Assembly: GCA_963709405.1 (NCBI GenBank)
Contig: CAVPXM010000021.1
Location: 32,001-96,000 of the forward strand
Direction: 5' to 3'
DNA length: 64,000 nucleotides
From: an uncultured Nitrososphaerales archaeon
GTDB lineage: Archaea > Thermoproteota > Nitrososphaeria > Nitrososphaerales > Nitrososphaeraceae
This document shows positions 38,614 through 48,025 of the stretch, in pieces (the first letter of the stretch is position 1; each line of letters opens with the position of its first letter). The notes below the pieces were generated by a model, which was not told the origin of the DNA, searched no databases, and was given only the letters and a program-made list of their open reading frames with translations. The position numbers and the translations under genes are program-made.

Positions 38614-38661
38614 CCTTGACCAAAAAATATAAATGTAGTGTCATTAGTGGGAACGCCTGAT

Positions 38662-39864
38662 ATGGCAAATAACAGAGTTGTACTAGCATACTCTGGTGGG
38701 CTGGATACCTCGGTTTGCGTACGTTACTTGCAAAAGCTGAATAAACTAGACGTTATTACGCTTACTATAGACTGTGGTCAGAATGAGGACTTTGCCGGAC
38801 TGGAACAAAGGTCGATGTCATTAGGTGCTATTAAACACATACATATTGATGCCAAAGAGGAATTCGCTGCAGATTATATTTCTCCATCTATACGAGCAAA
38901 CGGGCTCTATCAAGGCAAATATCCACTTGCAACTGCGCTCGCAAGACCTTTAATAGCAACAAAGCTCGTGGAAACCGCGCATCAAGAAGACGCGATGGCT
39001 GTTGCCCATGGTTGTACCGGAAAGGGAAATGACCAGATTCGGTTTGATGTAACGATTCGAAGTCTAGATCCAAGCTTGAGCATAATCGCTCCTATCAGAG
39101 ATATGAATTTGACACGGGATATTGAATTAAAATTTGCAAAGGAAGAGAATATTCCGATATCATTCGATGCGAGGAAATATAGCGTTGATTCCAATTATTG
39201 GGGAAGGGCAGTTGAAGGAGGCATACTAGAAGACTCTTATTGCGAGCCTCCCGACGACGTGTTTCATTTTGTTGGATCAGATGGAAACGATCCGGTTTAC
39301 ATAGAAATAGGCTTTGAAAAAGGATTGCCTATAGCATTGAATGGAAAAGATATGGGTCTCGTGTCGATCATAAACAGTCTAAATAAGACGGTCGGCACTT
39401 GCGGTGTAGGGATTATAGATCACATTGAAGACCGTGTAATCGGCGTGAAATCAAGGGAAATTTATGAAGCGCCTGCTGCAATCGCAATAATCGAAAGCCA
39501 CAAAGACTTGGAAAAATTGGTTCTTACAAATCATCAACTCAGATTCAAGCATTTGGTTGATGAACAATGGACATGGTTAGTGTATTCTGGCTTGTGGCAA
39601 GAACCACTTAGAAAAGATTTGGAGAGATTTATAGACTCCTCCCAGAAAAAAGTATGTGGAAGGGTAAAACTACGGATTCACAGAGGTTCAATGCGTGTAG
39701 TGGGAAGAGAATCAATTTATTCGATATATAAGGAATCACTGGCCACATATGGTACCGGCTCTACCTTTGATCAAAATCTGGCGAAGGGTTTCTCTGAATT
39801 ATGGGGCTTGCAGTCAATAATTGCAAACTCTATATTTGAAAACAAAACTCACAACAGGAGGTGA
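38662..39864 (+). CDS. argG: argininosuccinate synthase
   Basis: LAYSGGLDTS, TALARP, HGCTGKGNDQIRF, IEDRVIGVKSREIYEAP. Confidence 0.98.
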   Translation: MANNRVVLAYSGGLDTSVCVRYLQKLNKLDVITLTIDCGQNEDFAGLEQRSMSLGAIKHIHIDAKEEFAADYISPSIRANGLYQGKYPLATALARPLIATKLVETAHQEDAMAVAHGCTGKGNDQIRFDVTIRSLDPSLSIIAPIRDMNLTRDIELKFAKEENIPISFDARKYSVDSNYWGRAVEGGILEDSYCEPPDDVFHFVGSDGNDPVYIEIGFEKGLPIALNGKDMGLVSIINSLNKTVGTCGVGIIDHIEDRVIGVKSREIYEAPAAIAIIESHKDLEKLVLTNHQLRFKHLVDEQWTWLVYSGLWQEPLRKDLERFIDSSQKKVCGRVKLRIHRGSMRVVGRESIYSIYKESLATYGTGSTFDQNLAKGFSELWGLQSIIANSIFENKTHNRR

Positions 39865-39872
39865 ATGAGAAG

Positions 39873-40046
39873 ATGAAAAAAACTTGTGATGACTGTGGGG
39901 CAGAAATTACCGTTCCTAACGATGCGATGGCAGGCGAAATCATAACCTGTCCTGACTGCGGTGCAAATTTTGAAATAATCGAAAAATCCGAAGAAAAAAT
40001 AAAGGTAAAGCCTGCAGAATCGATAGGTGAAGATTGGGGACAATAG
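39873..40046 (+). CDS. lysW: amino-group carrier protein LysW/ArgW (copy 1)
   Basis: CDDC...CPDCG...EDWGQ, with SD AGGAGGTG upstream. Confidence 0.95.
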   Translation: MKKTCDDCGAEITVPNDAMAGEIITCPDCGANFEIIEKSEEKIKVKPAESIGEDWGQ

Positions 40047-40907
40047 ATGGTCGAACTTTGCATCATTTATGACAAGGTTCGTTTTGAAGAAAAGAATCTC
40101 CATGATAAAGCAGTAAAGAGGGGCTTAAATACACGAATTGTGGACGCAAAGAGTATCACTATTGGTACAAACAGCAAGAAAAGTGACTTAAAATTGGGAG
40201 ATATTATTTTGCAGAGGAGTATAAGCCACTACAGAGGACTATATCTTACGGCATGCCTTGAATTCTTAGGGTTTTTAGTCATCAATAGGTTCGAAGTGGG
40301 AGAAATATGCGGAAACAAGTTATTAACTTCAATCACGCTCGCCAAACAAAATGTACCAACTCCGACTACTCATTTCGCCTTCAGTTCCGAATCGTTATTA
40401 GATTTAATTAATAAAATGGGTTTCCCTTTAGTAGTGAAGCCAATAGTCGGTTCATGGGGCCGAGGTGTTTTTCCTTTGCGCGATGACGAAGCTGCAAATA
40501 TGATCGTTGAATTAAGAGAGGAAAATGACAATCCCCTATCTCGTATATATTACATCCAGGAAATGGTCAAGAGACCTCCTCGCGATCTTAGATGTATAGT
40601 CGTGGGGGATCGGGTTGTTGCAGCGGTCTATAGGTATTCTGCAGAGAAGGAATGGAGGACGAATGTTGCGAGAGGAGGCAGAACAGAAGAAGCGCCCATT
40701 ACAAAAGAGTTAGAAGATATTACAATGAAGGCGGCAAAAGCGGTTGGAGGAGGGGTGTTAGGTGTTGACCTAATGGAGGATGAAGCAAGAGGTCTACTAG
40801 TGCATGAAATTAATAGCACTGTTGAATTTCGCGGAGCTTCCAATGTTGCTAAAAGTGATATCGCAAACGCCATAATAGATTACAGTATTGGAATCGCAAG
40901 GAAATAG
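40047..40907 (+). CDS. argX: ATP-grasp LysW ligase (probably glutamate-specific ArgX)
   Basis: RimK/LysX motifs KPIVGSWGRG, YIQEMV..PPRDLR, WRTNVARG and HEIN. Lies next to argG. Confidence 0.85.
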   Translation: MVELCIIYDKVRFEEKNLHDKAVKRGLNTRIVDAKSITIGTNSKKSDLKLGDIILQRSISHYRGLYLTACLEFLGFLVINRFEVGEICGNKLLTSITLAKQNVPTPTTHFAFSSESLLDLINKMGFPLVVKPIVGSWGRGVFPLRDDEAANMIVELREENDNPLSRIYYIQEMVKRPPRDLRCIVVGDRVVAAVYRYSAEKEWRTNVARGGRTEEAPITKELEDITMKAAKAVGGGVLGVDLMEDEARGLLVHEINSTVEFRGASNVAKSDIANAIIDYSIGIARK

Positions 40908-41036
40908 GTGGACACTACACTGGCTCGTATATTCTCTTACAATATAACTCTTGAATGTACCTAGAAAAATGGAATTATTGTTATATGACAAAATTCATAA
41001 GAAGCTAAACTAGGAAACAGGGTAGAAATAGATAAC

Positions 41037-42089
41037 ATGAGAGTTGGTGTGGTAGGAGCATCTGGATATGTGGGCGGCGAGCTTTTGCGCCTTCTCGTAG
41101 GCCATCCAAAGATCGAATTAAGCACTGTCACTTCTAGACAAAAGGCTGGTGAATACGTGCATAGAGTACATCCTAGTCTAAAAGGATTCATTAATATCAC
41201 ATTTTCGGACATGAGTATTGATAAGCTTAGCAATACATGCGACATAGTATTCACTGCTCTCCCTCACGGGAAATCGAAGGAGATAGTAAAAGATCTTTAT
41301 GATCGAGGAATAAAGGTTATAGATTTATCCGCAGACTTCCGTTTGAAGAATCCAAAAGATTACGTTAAGTGGTACGGTTGGGAACATCCATTTCCTGAAT
41401 TACTATCAAAATCGGTATATGGTGTGCCTGAGATTCATCGTAGTGACATCAAAAGAGCTCAATTAGTATCCTGTCCTGGCTGCATGGCTGTTACATCACT
41501 TCTTGCAATAAGACCTTTAATCGCAAATGATTTGATAGAAACTGAACATATCGTGGTCGATAGTAAAATAGGATCCTCTGGAGCAGGATCTCAACCAAGT
41601 GCAGGAACACATCATGCCATGCGTTACGGAGTTATTCGTCCCTACAAGCCAGTAAAGCACAGACATACCGGAGAAATCGAACAAGAATTGGGGCAGGTTG
41701 CCAAAAGGGCCATTAGAATAAACATGACTCCTCACGCAGTAAATGTTGTACGAGGAATTTTGACCACTAACCATACCTTCTTGAAGCGGATGGTACCTGA
41801 GATTGACCTCTGGAAGATCTACAGAAATTCATACAAGGACGAACCATTTATCAGATTTATACGGGATAAAAAGGGCTTATACAAATTTCCGGATCCAAAG
41901 TTTTTAATCGGATCGAATCTTTGTGATATAGGCTTCGAAGTCGATGAAGAAAATCGAAGATTAGTAGCGCTATCGGCATCAGATAATTTAGTTAAGGGAG
42001 CTGCCGGCTCGGCAATACAGAACATGAATGTTATGCTGGCTTATGATGAAACAGATGGCCTCAAACAGACTCCGATCACACCAGTATGA
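41037..42089 (+). CDS. lysY: LysW-AAA/glutamyl-phosphate reductase (LysY/ArgC)
   Basis: VVGASGYVG, IDLSADFR, PGC, GSSGAG, DNLVKGAAG. Confidence 0.95.
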   Translation: MRVGVVGASGYVGGELLRLLVGHPKIELSTVTSRQKAGEYVHRVHPSLKGFINITFSDMSIDKLSNTCDIVFTALPHGKSKEIVKDLYDRGIKVIDLSADFRLKNPKDYVKWYGWEHPFPELLSKSVYGVPEIHRSDIKRAQLVSCPGCMAVTSLLAIRPLIANDLIETEHIVVDSKIGSSGAGSQPSAGTHHAMRYGVIRPYKPVKHRHTGEIEQELGQVAKRAIRINMTPHAVNVVRGILTTNHTFLKRMVPEIDLWKIYRNSYKDEPFIRFIRDKKGLYKFPDPKFLIGSNLCDIGFEVDEENRRLVALSASDNLVKGAAGSAIQNMNVMLAYDETDGLKQTPITPV

Positions 42090-42892
42090 TAGTCATAAAG
42101 CTAGGTGGTAGTGTCGTATCAGATAGACTACATCCTAGTACATTTCCAGATCTTAGAGAAATCTGCAAACGCGAAAAGATAGTAGTTGTTCACGGTGGCG
42201 GCAAGGATGTTACGAATATGGCAACTAAACTTGGTAAAGAGCAAAGGTTTATTGTTTCACCGCAGGGAATTAGGAGCAGATATACAGATAAAGAAACAAT
42301 TGAAATATACACTATGGTTATGTGTGGAAAGATTAACAAGATGATCGTGGGGATGCTCTTACGGCATGGTATAAAGGCGATCGGTATATCGGGTATAGAT
42401 GGTGTTACCATTAAAGCAGATCGCAAGAAAAAGCTTGTTATAATAAATGAGAAGGGTAGGAAAATGATAATTGAGGGTGGATATACTGGCAAAATAAGAG
42501 CGATAGATCCATCATTAGTCGATTTACTTGTAGCTGAAGGCTATGTTCCTGTTATATCACCTATCGCCTTAAGTGAAGACTTTGAATTTCTTAACGTAGA
42601 TGGGGATAGGGCAGCTGCTTACATTGCTGCTGGGATTAAGGCCGATAAGATATTGTTCATGACGGATGTCAACGGATTAATCATAAATAACCAAGTGATA
42701 TCAACTTTGACCTTGGAACGAGCCAAGGAGTTGTTGCCTTCTATCGGATTTGGTATGGAAAAAAAGGTTTTGGCTTGCACAGAGGCATTGGAAATGGGCG
42801 TCAATGAGTCTATTATCGGGTCCAGCCTAATTGATAATCCTATCTCCGCATGCCTTTCTCATCAACAGTGTACTGTAATCACTCAAAAATGA
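42086..42892 (+). CDS. lysZ: LysW-AAA/glutamate kinase (LysZ/ArgB)
   Basis: IKLGGS, VHGGG, SRYTD, LNVDGDRAA, GMEKK. Confidence 0.95.
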   Translation: MIVIKLGGSVVSDRLHPSTFPDLREICKREKIVVVHGGGKDVTNMATKLGKEQRFIVSPQGIRSRYTDKETIEIYTMVMCGKINKMIVGMLLRHGIKAIGISGIDGVTIKADRKKKLVIINEKGRKMIIEGGYTGKIRAIDPSLVDLLVAEGYVPVISPIALSEDFEFLNVDGDRAAAYIAAGIKADKILFMTDVNGLIINNQVISTLTLERAKELLPSIGFGMEKKVLACTEALEMGVNESIIGSSLIDNPISACLSHQQCTVITQK

Positions 42893-44070
42893 ATTCAGAA
42901 GATCGATATATCGGGAATCTTTATCAAAGATTTCCAGTAAATATTTCTCATGGAAAAGGAGCTAGGGTCTGGGATACTGACGGAAGAGAGTACATTGACT
43001 GTATGGCCGGGTATGGCGTAGCACTAGTAGGGCATTGCAACGATAGAGTAGTTCAAGCAATTAAGAACCAAATCGAGAGGCTAATCGTCTGCCATATGTC
43101 GACCTACAATGATACTCGTTTAGAATTTTTGGAAAAAATATCTAAAATTTCTCCAAGCGGGCTTTCGAAGGTAGCGTTCAGCAATAGCGGTGCTGAATCT
43201 GTTGAAGCAGCTTTAAAATTCGCTCGCAAATACACAGGTAAGCCTGGAATAATTGCAATGGTAGGTGGCTACCATGGCAAGACTCTGGGAGCACTATCTG
43301 TTACCTACAACGATAGGTACCGTAAACCATTTATGCCACTTTTAGATTTTGTCAGATTCGTACCTTACAATGATCGATTGAGAATGGATGAAGAAATAGA
43401 TGACTCAATAGGAACAGTGATAGTGGAACCAATTCAGGGAGAGACAGGAATTATTATACCTCCAGATGGGTTATTACAAAAAATTCGAGAGGTCTGCACA
43501 AGTCGAAAAATAGTTCTAATATTTGATGAAATTCAGTCGGGATTGGGAAGAACTGGCAAAATGTGGGCTGGAGAGCACTGGGATACGATTCCAGATATTA
43601 TGTGTCTGGCTAAGGGTATAGCTGGCGGGATACCAATGGCTCTTACTCTAGCTAAACCGGAAATAATTGATTCGATGAAAATTGGTGAACATTCGTCCAC
43701 TTTCGCTGGTAATCCGGTAGCATGTACGGCTGCATCAGCAGCTATTGATGCATTGGTTGAAGACAGACTAGTAGAAAATGCTGCCAATATTGGAAAATAC
43801 TTTAAGGATGGGTTAGAGAGTTTAAAGGAGAGACATAAAATAGTTAGAGAAGTAAGAGGGTTAGGATTGATGATTGCAATAGAACTTCGTTTTGATGTTA
43901 AGGATGTATTGTTTGACGGCATAAAGAATGGGGTACTAATGCTGTATTCAGGAAGAAATATTATTAGATTACTCCCACCTCTGGTAATAGATGAATCTAT
44001 GGTTTCTGTTGCACTTGAAAGGATAGATACCGTACTAACCAAAGAGGAGCAAAGAAGAAATGTTAGATGA
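42889..44070 (+). CDS. lysJ: LysW-semialdehyde aminotransferase (LysJ/ArgD)
   Basis: NSGAES, YHGKT, EPIQGE, FDEIQSG, LAKG, STFAGNP. Confidence 0.95.
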   Translation: MNSEDRYIGNLYQRFPVNISHGKGARVWDTDGREYIDCMAGYGVALVGHCNDRVVQAIKNQIERLIVCHMSTYNDTRLEFLEKISKISPSGLSKVAFSNSGAESVEAALKFARKYTGKPGIIAMVGGYHGKTLGALSVTYNDRYRKPFMPLLDFVRFVPYNDRLRMDEEIDDSIGTVIVEPIQGETGIIIPPDGLLQKIREVCTSRKIVLIFDEIQSGLGRTGKMWAGEHWDTIPDIMCLAKGIAGGIPMALTLAKPEIIDSMKIGEHSSTFAGNPVACTAASAAIDALVEDRLVENAANIGKYFKDGLESLKERHKIVREVRGLGLMIAIELRFDVKDVLFDGIKNGVLMLYSGRNIIRLLPPLVIDESMVSVALERIDTVLTKEEQRRNVR

Positions 44071-44485
44071 ACAAGATTCTGTTGATGACAAAATAATAAA
44101 GATCCTGCAAGAGGATTCGAGGAAGTCCTTTGTTGAGATTGCAAACGAAATCGGTTATTCAGAGTCGGCTGTTAGAAGACGAGTAAAGAATTTAACACGA
44201 AATGGGATTATAAAAAAGTTTACGATTGCAACTCAAAGTGGCGATAAAACAAGTGCAATAGCATTAATCTCGGTCAGTTCAACATCTGATACATCTGCAG
44301 TTTCAGCTAATTTGATGAAGCTAACTGGTGTTCAAACTATCTACGAAATTACTGGCCAATACGATATAGCAGCTATAATCTCATCCCCGTCAATAGCCGA
44401 AATTAATAGATGTATAGACGATGTTCGTAGGACAGACGGAGTCGCAGATACTAATACTGTTATAATCCTTAGGACTATACGTTAA
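44060..44485 (+). CDS. lysM: Lrp/AsnC regulator LysM
   Basis: DDKIIKILQEDSR..FVEIA..SESAVRRRV and YEITGQYD, located within the lys cluster. Confidence 0.88.
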   Translation: MLDEQDSVDDKIIKILQEDSRKSFVEIANEIGYSESAVRRRVKNLTRNGIIKKFTIATQSGDKTSAIALISVSSTSDTSAVSANLMKLTGVQTIYEITGQYDIAAIISSPSIAEINRCIDDVRRTDGVADTNTVIILRTIR

Positions 44486-44610
44486 TTTATTCGCCATTGA
44501 CATGAGATCACCAAGATCTTCCTCTAAATGGAATTTTCCTTTTCATCTCATGCTAATAAGTATCATATGCTCTAATAGGTTGCGATAAGATTTATATCTC
44601 ATACGAAAAT

Positions 44611-45840
44611 ATGTTTCATGAAGGAAGAATGTCGCTAAAACCGTCGGATCCCAATCATTATGCGTATATTTATAATGAATCAGATAAGGAACGTTCCAAT
44701 ATTCAAATACTCGACTCGACACTTAGAGAAGGTGAACAGCATCCTGGCGTCTCGTTTACTACAAAGCAAAGGATTCAGATTGCATGGATGCTCGATTCCT
44801 TTGGTGTCGATCAGATCGAGATAAGTCCGGTGGTTTCGTCTGATCACCTTGTTTCTACAAAGACGATAATAAAGCAGGGTTTAAGTGCAGATATCCTGGC
44901 TCACGTTAGAGCAACAAGATCTGATATTGACGTAGCGATCAGCTGTGATGCCACATGGGTAGCTACATACATGGGGATTTCCGATATTCATCTATCCTCA
45001 AAACTAAAAATATCAAGGGAAGAAGCAAAAATTAGGGCTCTAGATGTTGCTGACTACATAAAGTCGCATGGTTTAAAGGCTCGCTTCACTATGGAGGACG
45101 CTAGTCGAACAGATCCTTCATTTCTAATTGATATGTGTAAAGAAATGAACAATCGAAAGATTGAAAGAATTAGCCTTCCAGATACAGTCGGCATTATGCG
45201 ACCAAGGGGCATGTATAATCTTGTCAATCGCGTTTATGAAAGTATTGATAAGTCGAAAAGCCTACTTGACGTTCATTGTCACAATGATTTGGGACTTGCA
45301 TTAGCAAATGCTTTGGCGGGGTGTGATGCAGGGGCAAATCAAATACACACTACAATTGATGGACTAGGAGAACGAACAGGGATTCCGTCGTTGGCTGAAA
45401 CCGCAGTTGCCTTAATGCTTATTTACAGATCTAATAATGATCTCAGATTACACATGTTGAAGGATTTGTCAAGGACTATTTCACAGTACACAGGATTGGA
45501 GATTCCCGAGTCAAAACCAATCGTTGGGGATAGCGCATATAAACACAAAGCAGGCACTCATCTTCCAGCGGTCTTACGAGATCCATCTGCATACGAAATT
45601 ATAAAACCAGAAACAGTTGGCAATAGGAGAAAGATAGTATTTGGTGAGCTTGCAGGAAAAAATGGAGCAGCCTATCTTTTATCTTTACTCGGACTGGAAA
45701 CAAACATTCATGAAGCTGAAAAATTGGCACGAGGATTGAAGGATCTCAGAATGGGAGACATACTGGAGCTGTACTTAGACGATCGGCTAGAAAGAAAGAT
45801 ACTTAATGATGTATCTCCAAATCTAAAGACTAAGGAGTAA
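44611..45840 (+). CDS. homocitrate synthase (LeuA family)
   Basis: LDSTLREGEQ, PDTVG, HCHND, GLGERTG and HKAGTH. No LeuA regulatory domain. Lies in the lys cluster. Confidence 0.88.
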   Translation: MFHEGRMSLKPSDPNHYAYIYNESDKERSNIQILDSTLREGEQHPGVSFTTKQRIQIAWMLDSFGVDQIEISPVVSSDHLVSTKTIIKQGLSADILAHVRATRSDIDVAISCDATWVATYMGISDIHLSSKLKISREEAKIRALDVADYIKSHGLKARFTMEDASRTDPSFLIDMCKEMNNRKIERISLPDTVGIMRPRGMYNLVNRVYESIDKSKSLLDVHCHNDLGLALANALAGCDAGANQIHTTIDGLGERTGIPSLAETAVALMLIYRSNNDLRLHMLKDLSRTISQYTGLEIPESKPIVGDSAYKHKAGTHLPAVLRDPSAYEIIKPETVGNRRKIVFGELAGKNGAAYLLSLLGLETNIHEAEKLARGLKDLRMGDILELYLDDRLERKILNDVSPNLKTKE

Positions 45841-45850
45841 TTGGTTAAAA

Positions 45851-46018
45851 ATGGTCAAGTGTCCAGAATGCGACGCAGAAATAAAGCCACCATCCGATTC
45901 GATCGAGGGGGAAATAGTGACCTGTCAGGATTGTGGAGCAAGTTATGAACTGGTGAAAGAAGCCACAGAATTTAGCCTTAAACCGGCCCAGACAGTCGGT
46001 GAGGATTGGGGTCAGTGA
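45851..46018 (+). CDS. lysW: amino-group carrier protein LysW (copy 2)
   Basis: Manual translation MVKCPECDAEIKPPSDSIEGEIVTCQDCGASYELVKEATEFSLKPAQTVGEDWGQ. Confidence 0.95.
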   Translation: MVKCPECDAEIKPPSDSIEGEIVTCQDCGASYELVKEATEFSLKPAQTVGEDWGQ

Positions 46019-46894
46019 ACGACGAGGCAAAATCTTCATCTCCTCATTTCGCGATTCTATATGACCAAATTAGATGGGAAGAAAAAGCATTATATGAAGC
46101 AGCTAAGAAACGAGGATTTGAACCAGTAAATATTGATTGTAAAAGTCTGTTTGTGGATTTAAATCAAGCAGAATCTCGATATAAGGACTTCACAATCATT
46201 CAGCGGTGTGTAAGTTATTTCAAGAATATTCATTCCACGGCTGCGCTGGAGGGGCTAGGCGCAGTGGTAATTAATCCGCTCAGTACAAATTCAATATGTG
46301 GTAATAAGCTGTATACCCACATGGCCCTTCAAAAAGCAGGCGTGAAGACGCCCAAAGCGATTTCCGCCTTCTCAGGGACATCAGCAATCGCAGCACTTGA
46401 TCAGTTAGGATATCCTGCCATAATAAAGCCAACAATTGGGAGTTGGGGGCGGCTGATCGCCGTTTTGAACGATAGGGAGGGCAGCTAAAGGTGTAATTGA
46501 GCACAGGGAGCATATGTTTCCTTTGTATCAAGTATATTATTTTGAGGAATTCGTAGATCGGCCACCTAGAGATATTAGGGCCATAATTATAGGTGAGAGA
46601 GTAGTCGCCGCTATTTATCGATACTCTGCAAGTGGTGAATGGAAAACAAACATGGCCTTAGGGGCGCATGCCGAAAATTGTCCAATCACCAAAGACCTAG
46701 AAGATATATGTCTTGAGGCGAACAAGGCTGTTAACGGAAAAATTGTTGGGGTCGATTTAATGGAAAGCAAAAAGGACGGGTTTGTGGTTCATGAGGTCAA
46801 TAATACAACTGAATTTAAGAATACTGTGAAGGTGACTGAGATCGATATTCCAGGACAGATGGTGGACTTCGTATCTGAATTAGGAAAGCATTGA
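46015..46894 (+). CDS. lysX: alpha-aminoadipate-LysW ligase; extra G at 46479-46481
   Basis: YDQIRWEEK and KPTIGSWGRL. After removing one G the frame continues REAAKGVIEHREHMFP..PPRDIR, WKTNMALG, HEVN. Confidence 0.9.
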
Positions 46895-46906
46895 GCCAGT
46901 AACAAA

Positions 46907-48025
46907 TTGGTCTCTATCAATTATGCCATCGAATTGCTAAAGATGGCCCTAGAATTGTATACGCCGTCGAGATCCGAATCAGCACTTGCTAATATGCTAA
47001 AGACGAGGTGTACTGAAGAGTTAGGATTTGAACAAACATACGTTGACAGTGTAGGGAATATACTAGCCACTAAAGGCTCTGGGGAACCACGAATTCTCCT
47101 TTGTGGCCATATGGACACCGTTCCTGGCAGGATCCCAGTCAGGATAGATGACGGTTACTTGTACGGAAGAGGAGCATCAGATGCCAAGGCGTCGTTAGTC
47201 TCTATGCTTCTAGCAGCTTCTGAGTTTCCAAAACAGAAAGGCACGATCATTTTTGTCGGTGTAGTAGATGAAGAAGGAAATGCCACAGGAATAAAGAACC
47301 TCGTAGCATCCAGATTACCATTCGACTATGCAATCTTTGGTGAACCTAGTGGTATCAAAAATATTACTATTGCATATAAGGGCAGATTATCAATTAGACT
47401 CACATGCGATGTAGGCAATAGCTCACATGCCAGTGCCCCTTGGTTATCTAAGAATTCCATCGAGGAAATCTATGATTTTTGGACTGGGATAAAATCTGAA
47501 ATATCCAGAATAAGTATATATGAAAATAAAACAAAAACTGTAAGCTGCAGTCTAACAGAAATTGTTGGTGGATCTAGTCACAATGTTACTCCACGAAAAT
47601 CTACTATGACCATTGATATACGTATTCCAGTATCCATAAAATCTCAAGATGTGCTACACCTCATTGATCAAGTTATATGCAAAATTGCGAGTGAAAAGGG
47701 AGTTAAAGCTACTTATAGAATACAGGACCAAACCGAACCCTTTGAAGCGAGCTATTCCTCGGCTTTAGTGAGAGCCATGTCATTATCAATAATTGATGTA
47801 TGTAAAATTCGACCTACGCTTTTGAGGAAAACAGGCACAGGTGATATGAATATTTTAGGTAATGCATTCAAGATTCCTGTAGTGACATACGGGCCTGGCG
47901 AACCTCATGCATCACATACAGCTAATGAACGGGTAAACCTTGAAGAATATGTCACCAGCATAGATGTATTCTCCAGGGCTCTGTTTCATATTTCTAGACT
48001 ACATACCCGAAAAAAACCTACCTAG
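46907..48025 (+). CDS. lysK: LysW-lysine/ornithine hydrolase (M20)
   Basis: LCGHMDTV, GRGASDAK, DEEG, GEPS, HAS, GTGDMN, YGPG. Confidence 0.93.
   Translation: MVSINYAIELLKMALELYTPSRSESALANMLKTRCTEELGFEQTYVDSVGNILATKGSGEPRILLCGHMDTVPGRIPVRIDDGYLYGRGASDAKASLVSMLLAASEFPKQKGTIIFVGVVDEEGNATGIKNLVASRLPFDYAIFGEPSGIKNITIAYKGRLSIRLTCDVGNSSHASAPWLSKNSIEEIYDFWTGIKSEISRISIYENKTKTVSCSLTEIVGGSSHNVTPRKSTMTIDIRIPVSIKSQDVLHLIDQVICKIASEKGVKATYRIQDQTEPFEASYSSALVRAMSLSIIDVCKIRPTLLRKTGTGDMNILGNAFKIPVVTYGPGEPHASHTANERVNLEEYVTSIDVFSRALFHISRLHTRKKPT

What the first reader, a model, noticed from the sequence alone, without database searches (positions are those of the whole stretch)
39873..46018. Both LysW carrier proteins end in EDWGQ, lacking the substrate-carrying C-terminal Glu
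Seen: copy 1 ends GAA GAT TGG GGA CAA TAG and copy 2 ends GAG GAT TGG GGT CAG TGA. Two different Gln codons make a sequencing error unlikely. Known: in Thermus and Sulfolobus, LysX/ArgX activate the gamma-carboxyl of the terminal Glu of EDWGE, which Gln does not have. Inference: LysW needs a priming deamidation (LysK, a gamma-glutamyl-amide hydrolase, is the obvious candidate), or the ligase uses the alpha-carboxyl or transamidation. Any of these could be an unrecognised maturation or regulatory step.
Basis: partly seen in the sequence, partly recalled or inferred. Interest (0 to 1): 0.7.

Follow-up and report, generated by a model that had tools for sequence, protein, structure and literature searches.

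The report
Carrier proteins ending in glutamine
Both lysine/arginine carrier proteins of this soil ammonia-oxidising archaeon are encoded with a terminal glutamine where the textbook mechanism needs a glutamate, and this turns out to be a conserved, widespread and apparently unreported state that implies a hidden activation step.

Summary
LysW1 (39873-40046) ends GAA GAT TGG GGA CAA TAG. LysW2 (45851-46018) ends GAG GAT TGG GGT CAG TGA. Both score above the LysW family cut-offs. Contigs from three other studies carry the same codons.

This is not a quirk of one genome.
- In the organism's family (Nitrososphaeraceae), 61 of 101 genomes show only Gln-ending LysW.
- In the sister family f2, 56 of 56 genomes carry a Gln-ending LysW2 next to a Glu-ending LysW1.
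- Several non-AOA lineages have a Gln-ending LysW as their only carrier.
- Among unbiased cluster representatives, 21 of 117 end in WGQ and 96 in WGE. No third residue was seen.

This assembly has no third LysW, no EDWGE pattern and no ArgJ.

E and Q switched at least six times on a 40-genome tree, with no clear compensating change in LysX, LysK or ArgB. Yet Q is fixed in LysW2 of f2 while the adjacent Gly wobble base varies freely.

Best reading: Gln is a masked Glu that is converted once, as PupQ is by Dop. After that, LysK regenerates LysW-Glu every cycle. The converting enzyme is unknown; LysK or LysX/ArgX are only candidates. Direct use of the amide, or ligation to the alpha-carboxyl, remain possible.

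My literature searches found no mention of this state.

The parts
38638..39864 (+). argG (argininosuccinate synthase), first gene of the conserved cluster
   Evidence: ORF. It is conserved upstream of lysW1 in the related loci.
39873..40046 (+). lysW1 (ArgW-type carrier), zinc ribbon CxxC...CxxC, ends GEDWGQ (Gln codon CAA at 40041-40043, stop TAG)
   Evidence: An AGGAGGTG motif lies upstream of the ATG.
40047..40907 (+). lysX1, a RimK-type ATP-grasp ligase that looks ArgX-like (specificity motif EFRGA; GSWGR motif present)
   Evidence: TIGR02144 at 296 bits against a cut-off of 275.6. Alignment to Thermus LysX. Motif tally.
41037..42089 (+). argC/lysY reductase
   Evidence: TIGR01850 at 427 bits.
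42086..42892 (+). argB/lysZ, [LysW]-aminoadipate/[LysW]-glutamate kinase
   Evidence: NF010662 at 303 bits against a cut-off of 194.
42850..44070 (+). argD/lysJ aminotransferase (ORF as listed; the true start may lie further downstream)
   Evidence: TIGR00707 at 404.7 bits and LysJ models.
44060..44485 (+). Lrp/AsnC-type regulator ORF between the two halves of the cluster; the name is my reading of the sequence
   Evidence: ORF. Its position is conserved in the related loci. I did not scan it against family libraries.
44611..45840 (+). homocitrate/isopropylmalate synthase family gene (likely homocitrate synthase, the first step towards alpha-aminoadipate)
   Evidence: TIGR02146 at 358 bits, below its cut-off of 413.55. 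NF002085 at 398 bits, also below its cut-off. So assigning it as homocitrate synthase is an inference from context.
45851..46018 (+). lysW2 (Lys-type carrier), ends GEDWGQ (Gln codon CAG at 46013-46015, stop TGA)
46006..46894 (+). lysX2, a LysX-type ligase (motif EFKNT; GSWGR). In this window it is split into 46006-46488 and 46514-46894 by one extra base near 46479. Its likely start, GTG at 46015, overlaps the lysW2 stop (caGTGa).
   Evidence: Contigs of 4 of 4 other runs lack one base at 46479. The gene is intact in all 6 other genomes of the genus.
46907..48025 (+). lysK, an M20 [LysW]-lysine/ornithine hydrolase
   Evidence: NF003367 at 284 bits (below its cut-off of 363) and TIGR01902 at 266.5 bits (above its cut-off of 163.1). 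Pfam Peptidase_M20 plus M20_dimer.

Best explanation
The window holds the conserved 11-gene arginine/lysine cluster of ammonia-oxidising archaea: argG-lysW1-argX-argC-argB-argD-lrp-hcs-lysW2-lysX-lysK. It has two dedicated carriers. LysW1 pairs with an ArgX-like ligase and LysW2 pairs with a LysX-like ligase. Both carriers are encoded with a C-terminal Gln.

Most likely the Gln is a masked Glu. The side-chain amide of each newly made carrier is hydrolysed once to give the gamma-carboxylate. LysX/ArgX then activates this with ATP and joins it to the amino group of glutamate or alpha-aminoadipate, as in Thermus and Sulfolobus. LysK hydrolysis at the end of every cycle releases LysW-Glu, so only nascent carrier needs priming.

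This parallels PupQ, which Dop deamidates to PupE before PafA ligates it through the gamma-carboxylate.

Shown here: the sequences, their distribution, and that the genome depends on Q-type carriers. Inferred: that deamidation occurs. Unknown: which enzyme does it. LysK, or the LysX/ArgX active site, are candidates.
For: (1) Only E or Q ever follows the EDWG-type motif.
- In the unbiased phmmer listing: 96 WGE, 21 WGQ and 0 others among the 117 entries with a WG-x end, out of 149 new entries. The remaining 32 were truncated, chimeric, unrelated or EDF/Y/G variants.
- Among all 320 proteins fetched: 178 Q, 111 E and 0 others.
- The other single-base neighbours of Glu (K, D, G, A, V) and of Gln (H, K, R, L, P) are absent. 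This argues that the side-chain carbonyl itself matters.

(2) Q-type carriers must work.
- G000 has only two LysW, both Q, and no ArgJ.
- In genera g2, g8, g13 and g17, lysW1 is lost or decayed, so LysW2-Q is the sole carrier.
- In the 401-genome phylum sample, 28 genomes have Q and no E pattern.
- A published model of Nitrosopumilus maritimus needs the LysW route for arginine (PMC6038301, passages).

(3) E and Q interchange often, within an otherwise invariant GEDWG and the same gene cluster. There are at least 3 changes in each paralog on a 40-genome tree. No LysX, LysK or ArgB column tracks the state perfectly once an overlapping-frame artefact is removed. GSWGR is kept in 39 of 39 LysX1 and 39 of 39 LysX2.

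(4) Precedent: PupQ, Dop and PafA (PMC8599861, passages).
Against: There is no direct evidence of deamidation. No proteomic or biochemical data were available.

No amidase-type gene lies in the Q-only clusters I examined. The unassigned neighbours were a cobW-like GTPase, a radical SAM protein, an HpcH aldolase, a thiolase and ArgH.

From my own knowledge rather than a test here: M20 hydrolases such as LysK normally recognise the carboxylate of the leaving amino acid, which ammonia lacks.

Q is strictly kept in LysW2 of family f2. It is CAG in 56 of 56 genomes, while the adjacent Gly wobble base is A 26, G 17, C 11, T 2. LysW1 there is E in 55 of 56. So Q is under selection and is not merely tolerated. 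A one-time priming step does not by itself explain that. The same puzzle exists for PupQ.

Two LysX2 columns lean with the state: N versus D (2 exceptions) and M versus V (1 exception). They rest on only 2-3 independent events, so ligase adaptation cannot be excluded.
Confidence: 0.45

Rival explanations
1. LysX/ArgX uses the Gln amide directly. The amide oxygen attacks ATP (or bound phosphate), and the activated carbon is attacked by the amino group of Glu or alpha-aminoadipate (or by water) while ammonia leaves. The ligase would then be its own priming enzyme, with no separate deamidase.
For: The restriction to E or Q applies equally here. No separate amidase lies in the clusters. The terminal residue already sits next to ATP in the ligase, as in the solved ArgX/LysX-LysW complexes 3VPB and 5K2M listed. 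For Dop, the authors propose that both the PupQ amide and the PupE carboxylate attack the ATP gamma-phosphate (PMC8599861, passages).
Against: I know of no ATP-grasp enzyme shown to do this (recalled, not searched). No ligase column tracks E versus Q cleanly. Dop and PafA belong to a different fold from RimK/LysX.
Confidence: 0.2
2. In Q-type carriers the amino acid is joined to the free alpha-carboxyl of the terminal Gln. This is the chemistry of the homologue RimK on ribosomal protein S6. The Gln stays Gln through every cycle.
For: LysX belongs to the RimK family (TIGR00768 at 277 bits; RimK structures matched). A persistent Q could explain why Q is conserved in LysW2 of f2 while LysW1 stays E. 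In that case Q would be a lasting identity mark of the lysine carrier.
Against: If the side chain were not the reactive group, residues other than E or Q should appear over such long divergence. None was seen (0 of 289 motif-bearing proteins). E and Q swap between sister genera, and within one genus (G037 against the other g12 genomes). Meanwhile the single shared set of ArgB, ArgC, ArgD and LysK stays the same. These enzymes would then have to accept two tether geometries. All three characterised systems use the gamma-carboxyl (PMC10433800, passages).
Confidence: 0.12
3. Q-type LysW is inactive, acting as a decoy or reserve. The flux is carried by something else: another carrier, N-acetylation, or a small fraction of carrier that receives Glu at the CAA/CAG codon. 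The last could arise because archaea make Gln-tRNA through Glu-tRNA(Gln), which is my own recalled knowledge.
For: In family f2 an E-type LysW1 always accompanies the Q-type LysW2 (55 of 56 genomes). There, an E-type carrier could in principle serve both ligases.
Against: G000 has no E-type LysW and no ArgJ. In family f1, 61 of 101 genomes show only Q-type termini. Outside the order, 24 genomes in the phylum sample are Q-only. The Q-type genes keep intact zinc ribbons and an invariant GEDWG, and they keep their own ligase.
Confidence: 0.06
4. The Q termini are an assembly or sequencing artefact.
For: The same window does contain one probable assembly error, an extra base at 46479 in lysX2.
Against: The two genes use different Gln and stop codons. 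Contigs from three other studies carry identical termini. Hundreds of related genomes have the same state.
Confidence: 0.01

Closest known systems
LysW/ArgW amino-group carrier proteins of Thermus thermophilus, Sulfolobus/Sulfurisphaera and Thermococcus kodakarensis, with LysX/ArgX, LysZ, LysY, LysJ and LysK
   Same: About 55 aa, a zinc ribbon with four Cys and an acidic tail ending GEDWG-x. Each carrier gene is followed by a RimK-type ligase that has the GSWGR motif. The full set of kinase, reductase, aminotransferase and M20 hydrolase is present.
   Different: The last residue is Gln, not the Glu whose gamma-carboxyl carries the substrate. All three solved LysW end in EDWGE. There are two dedicated carrier/ligase pairs in one cluster (ArgX-like EFRGA and LysX-like EFKNT). 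Sulfolobus instead has one shared carrier.
Pup / Dop / PafA (prokaryotic ubiquitin-like protein) of Actinobacteria
   Same: Pup is a small protein whose C-terminal residue is Gln in some lineages and Glu in others. The Gln form must be deamidated before an ATP-dependent ligase joins the gamma-carboxylate to an amine. In that system the enzyme that later removes the tag, Dop, is also the deamidase (PMC8599861, passages). LysK plays the tag-removing role here.
   Different: The folds and enzymes are unrelated: GS-like PafA/Dop against ATP-grasp LysX and M20 LysK. The partner is a metabolite rather than a protein lysine. Deamidation of LysW-Q has not been shown.
RimK (ribosomal protein S6 glutamate ligase)
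   Same: It is homologous to LysX and acts on the C-terminal residue of a small protein.
   Different: From my own knowledge, RimK extends the alpha-carboxyl. It is relevant only as the model for the alpha-ligation rival.

Membership tests
LysW/ArgW amino-group carrier protein | Matches the curated family models over its whole length | tested here: met
   NF041070 at 88.9 and 83.9 bits (cut-off 75), covering profile positions 1-57 and 3-57. PF21344 at 54 and 45.9 bits (cut-off 27). The bacterial-type model TIGR01206 scores below its cut-off (39.4 and 36.9 bits against 53.2).
LysW/ArgW amino-group carrier protein | Zinc ribbon with two CxxC pairs | tested here: met
   LysW1 has C-DD-C ... C-PD-C. 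LysW2 has C-PE-C ... C-QD-C.
LysW/ArgW amino-group carrier protein | C-terminal EDWGE motif with a terminal Glu as the attachment residue | tested here: not met
   EDWG is present, but the last residue is Gln in both copies. The three solved LysW end in EDWGE. On every other criterion these are LysW proteins, so I keep them in the family as a variant. The feature may be restored after translation.
LysW/ArgW amino-group carrier protein | Encoded next to a LysX/ArgX ATP-grasp ligase with the GSWGR motif, and with LysZ/Y/J/K homologues | tested here: met
   GSWGR is present in 39 of 39 LysX1 and 39 of 39 LysX2.
LysW/ArgW amino-group carrier protein | Covalent gamma-glutamyl linkage to Glu or alpha-aminoadipate | not testable with these tools
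   This needs mass spectrometry or in vitro ligation.
Pup-like 'pro-carrier' (Gln-encoded, deamidation-primed) | The terminal residue alternates only between Gln and Glu among relatives | tested here: met
   21 Q and 96 E among the 117 motif-bearing representatives. 178 Q and 111 E, with 0 others, among all proteins fetched. At least 6 switches on the tree.
Pup-like 'pro-carrier' (Gln-encoded, deamidation-primed) | A deamidase converts the Gln form to the ligation-competent Glu form | not testable with these tools
   No candidate could be singled out. No amidase lies in the clusters, and no LysK or LysX column co-varies cleanly.

The most novel reading that the evidence does not exclude
Carrier-protein-dependent lysine and arginine synthesis in ammonia-oxidising archaea, and in other lineages with Q-type LysW, includes an obligatory, selected activation step. 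The nascent carrier is a pro-carrier. Its terminal Gln amide must be removed or displaced by LysK, by LysX/ArgX or by an unknown enzyme before it can enter the cycle. This would be a metabolic counterpart of PupQ/Dop that gates how much active carrier each pathway receives. In the boldest form, an ATP-grasp ligase activates an amide directly, which would be new chemistry for that superfamily.
Probability: 0.5. Interest if true: 0.75.

Novelty: new variant of a known kind. Interest (0 to 1): 0.68.

Why it matters
The terminal Glu of LysW is treated as the defining catalytic residue of the amino-group carrier system. Here it is replaced by Gln in the carriers of one of the most abundant archaeal groups on Earth, and in roughly a fifth of diverse LysW clusters.

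If a priming deamidation exists, current pathway reconstructions and metabolic models of these organisms lack a step. LysK or LysX would then have an unrecognised second activity, and the unexplained Q/E dimorphism of Pup would gain an independent parallel.

If instead the amide or the alpha-carboxyl is used directly, that would extend the known chemistry of the RimK/LysX ligases.

Either way the question can be tested directly with recombinant proteins and with cultivated strains.

Tried and rejected
- Third, E-type LysW elsewhere in the genome: not found (two further hits at 17 and 9 bits only; 0 EDWGE-stop patterns). The assembly is 91% complete.
- Sequencing error: rejected.
- A LysX, LysK or ArgB residue that tracks E versus Q: the only perfect column (LysX2 alignment column 22) is an artefact. 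It is the lysW2 terminal codon read in the overlapping frame of my stop-to-stop ORFs. The next best columns have 1-2 exceptions and rest on few independent events. Result: inconclusive.
- A dedicated amidase beside Q-only clusters: six unassigned neighbour ORFs were scanned. Five matched a family, none of them an amidase, and one had no match.
- Naming the taxa of non-AOA Q-type LysW: one search named only one cluster (Candidatus Caldarchaeum MAGs). One search found 2 proteins with no names. One search returned mostly AOA sequences (114 of the 120 listed end in EDWGQ).
- G001 pattern hit GAGGATTGGGGTCAGTGG: the locus (L060) holds no homologue of the cluster genes, so it is unrelated.
- Two 10-base regions (L077, L078) were requested by mistake and carry no information.
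- RNA evidence: contigs of one RNA library (X15) cover 29 of 30 bins. The tool warns that this does not show transcription, so I make no expression claim.
- I did not run complex prediction, structure prediction or fold search. A predicted LysW-LysX or LysW-LysK contact would not distinguish the mechanisms.
- Literature searches: 'EDWGQ' returned 0 papers. LysW+deamidation returned 1, irrelevant. Other LysW searches found no mention of a Gln terminus in the passages I read (PMC10433800, PMC6038301, PMC12998189, bioRxiv 2021.12.28.474397). Subscription-journal papers of the field and all supplements were not searchable, so prior mention cannot be excluded.


Full report
**What is in the window**

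The ORF list and the family scans show one co-directional cluster on the + strand:
- argG (38638-39864)
- lysW1 (39873-40046)
- lysX1 (40047-40907)
- argC/lysY (41037-42089)
- argB/lysZ (42086-42892)
- argD/lysJ (42850-44070)
- an Lrp-like ORF (44060-44485)
- a homocitrate/isopropylmalate synthase family gene (44611-45840)
- lysW2 (45851-46018)
- lysX2 (46006-46894)
- lysK (46907-48025)

GAA GAT TGG GGA CAA TAG lies at 40029-40046. GAG GAT TGG GGT CAG TGA lies at 46001-46018. Both small proteins are zinc ribbons with two CxxC pairs. Both score above the cut-offs of NF041070 (88.9 and 83.9 bits against 75) and PF21344.

**Is it real?**

Contigs from three DNA runs of three other studies cover both termini at 99% identity or more. 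The differences listed for those contigs account for all their mismatches, and none lies in the terminal codons.

The same call shows that contigs of all 4 runs laid lack one base at 46479. The split of lysX2 in this window is therefore specific to this assembly, either an assembly error or a strain-private mutation. lysX2 is a single ORF in the six other genomes of the genus.

**Whose genome**

The window is contig 21 of a 4.83 Mb assembly in 100 contigs, 91% complete. Its nearest named relatives are Nitrososphaeraceae MAGs.

The assembly has only these two LysW. Two further hits score 17 and 9 bits. It has no EDWGE-stop pattern, only these two LysX and no ArgJ.

**Survey of termini**

*(a) Close homologues of LysW1.* Of 46 proteins, 38 end in EDWGQ and 8 in EDWGE.

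*(b) Unbiased phmmer of LysW2 against 1.84 billion cluster representatives.* There were 235 hits, of which 150 were listed and 149 were new.
- 96 end in WGE.
- 21 end in WGQ.
- 32 are truncated, chimeric, unrelated, or EDFG/EDYG/EDGG variants.
- No residue other than E or Q follows the motif.

That sample is biased towards AOA.

*(c) Family f1 (Nitrososphaeraceae), 101 genomes, pattern GARGAYTGGGGNSARTRR.* 96 genomes match, and the reversed-pattern control gives 0 hits. Combining this:

| State | Genomes (n = 101) |
|---|---|
| Only Q-type termini | 61 |
| Q and E | 29 |
| Only E | 1 |
| Matched, but row not printed | 5 |
| No match | 5 |

The tally includes two genomes flagged as unpublished. 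G076 is counted as Q-only. G035 is among those whose row was not printed.

All 7 genomes of the window's genus are Q/Q.

*(d) Phylum sample of 401 genomes.* The Q pattern is in 86 genomes and the E pattern in 261. That gives 28 Q-only, 58 with both, 203 E-only and 112 with neither.
- In the sister family f2, 56 of 56 genomes have a Q-type terminus and 55 of 56 also have an E-type terminus. These are small, mostly complete genomes. The named loci L017 and L018 from Nitrosopumilales/Nitrosopumilaceae MAGs have the same arrangement.
- Outside the order, Q-only genomes occur in f12 (14), f18 (9) and f33 (1).
- One Q-type cluster is named Candidatus Caldarchaeum by its source.

**Anatomy across relatives**

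I fetched 58 usable loci and mapped them by BLAST against the window's proteins. The 11-gene cluster is conserved across the order.

The two ligases differ at the published specificity positions.
- LysX2 has E[FY][KR]NT in 37 of 39 genomes. Asn-Thr is the pair reported for the monofunctional Sulfolobus LysX.
- LysX1 has EF[RK]G[ALM] in 33 of 39. Gly is the first residue of the Gly-Phe pair of Sulfolobus ArgX.
- Sources; alignments; PMC10433800, passages.

With argG beside pair 1 and the synthase gene and lysK beside pair 2, I read pair 1 as the arginine carrier/ligase and pair 2 as the lysine carrier/ligase. This is an inference.

In f2 and f3 the arginine carrier ends in E and the lysine carrier in Q. 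In most of f1 both end in Q.

In genera g2, g8, g13 and g17 lysW1 is missing, or is reduced to a decayed remnant. That leaves LysW2-Q as the only carrier. In g2, g13 and g17 both ligases are retained.

**Evolutionary pattern**

I built a tree from concatenated ArgC, ArgD, LysK, ArgG and the synthase. It has 40 genomes and 1932 columns, was made with FastTree, and was rooted between f1 and f2/f3.
- LysW2 is Q throughout, except in g4, g15 and g16.
- LysW1 is E in f2 and f3, in four of five g12 genomes and in g15. It is Q elsewhere in f1.

That makes at least three changes per paralog, beside an invariant GEDWG. The LysX2 tree places g15 and g16 nearer each other, so the count for LysW2 may be two.

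Q is nevertheless not merely neutral. In the 56 f2 genomes the terminal codon of LysW2 is always CAG, while the third base of the adjacent Gly codon is A 26, G 17, C 11, T 2 (my count from the rows).

**Search for a partner change**

Across LysX1, LysX2, LysK and ArgB, no alignment column separates E from Q lineages cleanly.
- The only perfect column was an artefact of the overlapping reading frame.
- The two best LysX2 columns, N versus D and M versus V, have 2 and 1 exceptions and rest on 2-3 events.
- GSWGR, the ligase motif reported to recognise EDWGE (PMC10433800), is intact in all 78 ligases.
- Neighbour genes of Q-only clusters in other lineages include no amidase.

**What is known**

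All three solved LysW (Thermus, Sulfurisphaera tokodaii, Thermococcus) end in EDWGE.

The literature I could read describes the gamma-carboxyl of the terminal Glu as the attachment point. It reports that E54A abolishes arginine synthesis in Natrinema (PMC10433800).

A metabolic model of Nitrosopumilus maritimus needs the LysW route because glutamate acetylation is missing (PMC6038301).

A 2025 paper on the evolution of the system mentions neither Gln nor glutamine (PMC12998189, term search).

'EDWGQ' occurs in no paper of the library.

**Mechanism**

A gamma-carboxamide cannot form the acyl-phosphate that an ATP-grasp ligase makes, so something must differ. Three facts point to the side-chain carbonyl remaining the reactive position:
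- The terminal residue is restricted to E or Q.
- The two interchange freely within one unchanged enzyme set.
- Whole genomes depend on Q-type carriers.

The most economical model is a single deamidation of each nascent carrier. After that, LysK hydrolysis returns LysW-Glu in every cycle. This is the logic of PupQ/Dop/PafA, where the de-conjugating enzyme is also the deamidase (PMC8599861). By analogy LysK is a candidate, and so is the ligase active site.

I put confidence at:
- 0.45 on hydrolytic priming
- 0.20 on direct amide use by the ligase
- 0.12 on alpha-carboxyl ligation
- 0.06 on inactive carriers
- 0.01 on artefact

The remainder is left unassigned.

The conservation of Q in the lysine carrier of f2 suggests the masked state is itself useful, for example to gate how much new carrier enters the lysine branch. 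That is speculation.

**Verdict**

This is a new variant of a known system that can be tested directly.

Noticed in passing
window 46006-46894 (break near 46479): lysX2 is split into two ORFs by one extra base. Contigs from all 4 other runs laid lack that base, and the six other genomes of the genus have an intact gene. It is probably an assembly error or a strain-private frameshift.
   Followed up: yes
window 38638-48025; loci L005-L055, L064-L073: An 11-gene cluster (argG-lysW1-argX-argC-argB-argD-lrp-hcs-lysW2-lysX-lysK) is conserved across the whole order. It has two dedicated carrier/ligase pairs and one shared set of downstream enzymes. Sulfolobus, by contrast, has one shared carrier.
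   Followed up: partly
L059 (3850-4100), L061 (1250-1720), L062 (2200-2440), L063 (3040-3260): In four genera of the family lysW1 is gone or is a decayed remnant. One remnant still ends ...WGQ, and another has lost its cysteines. In one genus (g8) lysX1 is missing as well. A single Q-type LysW2 then has to serve both ligases.
   Followed up: partly
window 46013-46018: The lysW2 stop overlaps a likely GTG start of lysX2 (caGTGa), which suggests translational coupling. lysW1's TAG is followed directly by the ATG of lysX1 at 40047.
   Followed up: no
proteins P0236, P0287: Two database LysW homologues run on past the motif (...EDWGQWPTL and ...EDWGQWDWGQ). These could reflect a lost stop codon, a repeat or a sequencing error.
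   Followed up: no
G261 (family f2; rows): One genome of the sister family has Q at both carriers and no E-type pattern. The other 55 have E plus Q. This looks like an independent E-to-Q change in the arginine carrier.
   Followed up: no
G000:C36:11030-12289 (-): A LysA-like ORF scores 247 bits against TIGR01048, below the cut-off of 297.9. Whether the organism also has a diaminopimelate route to lysine was not resolved.
   Followed up: no
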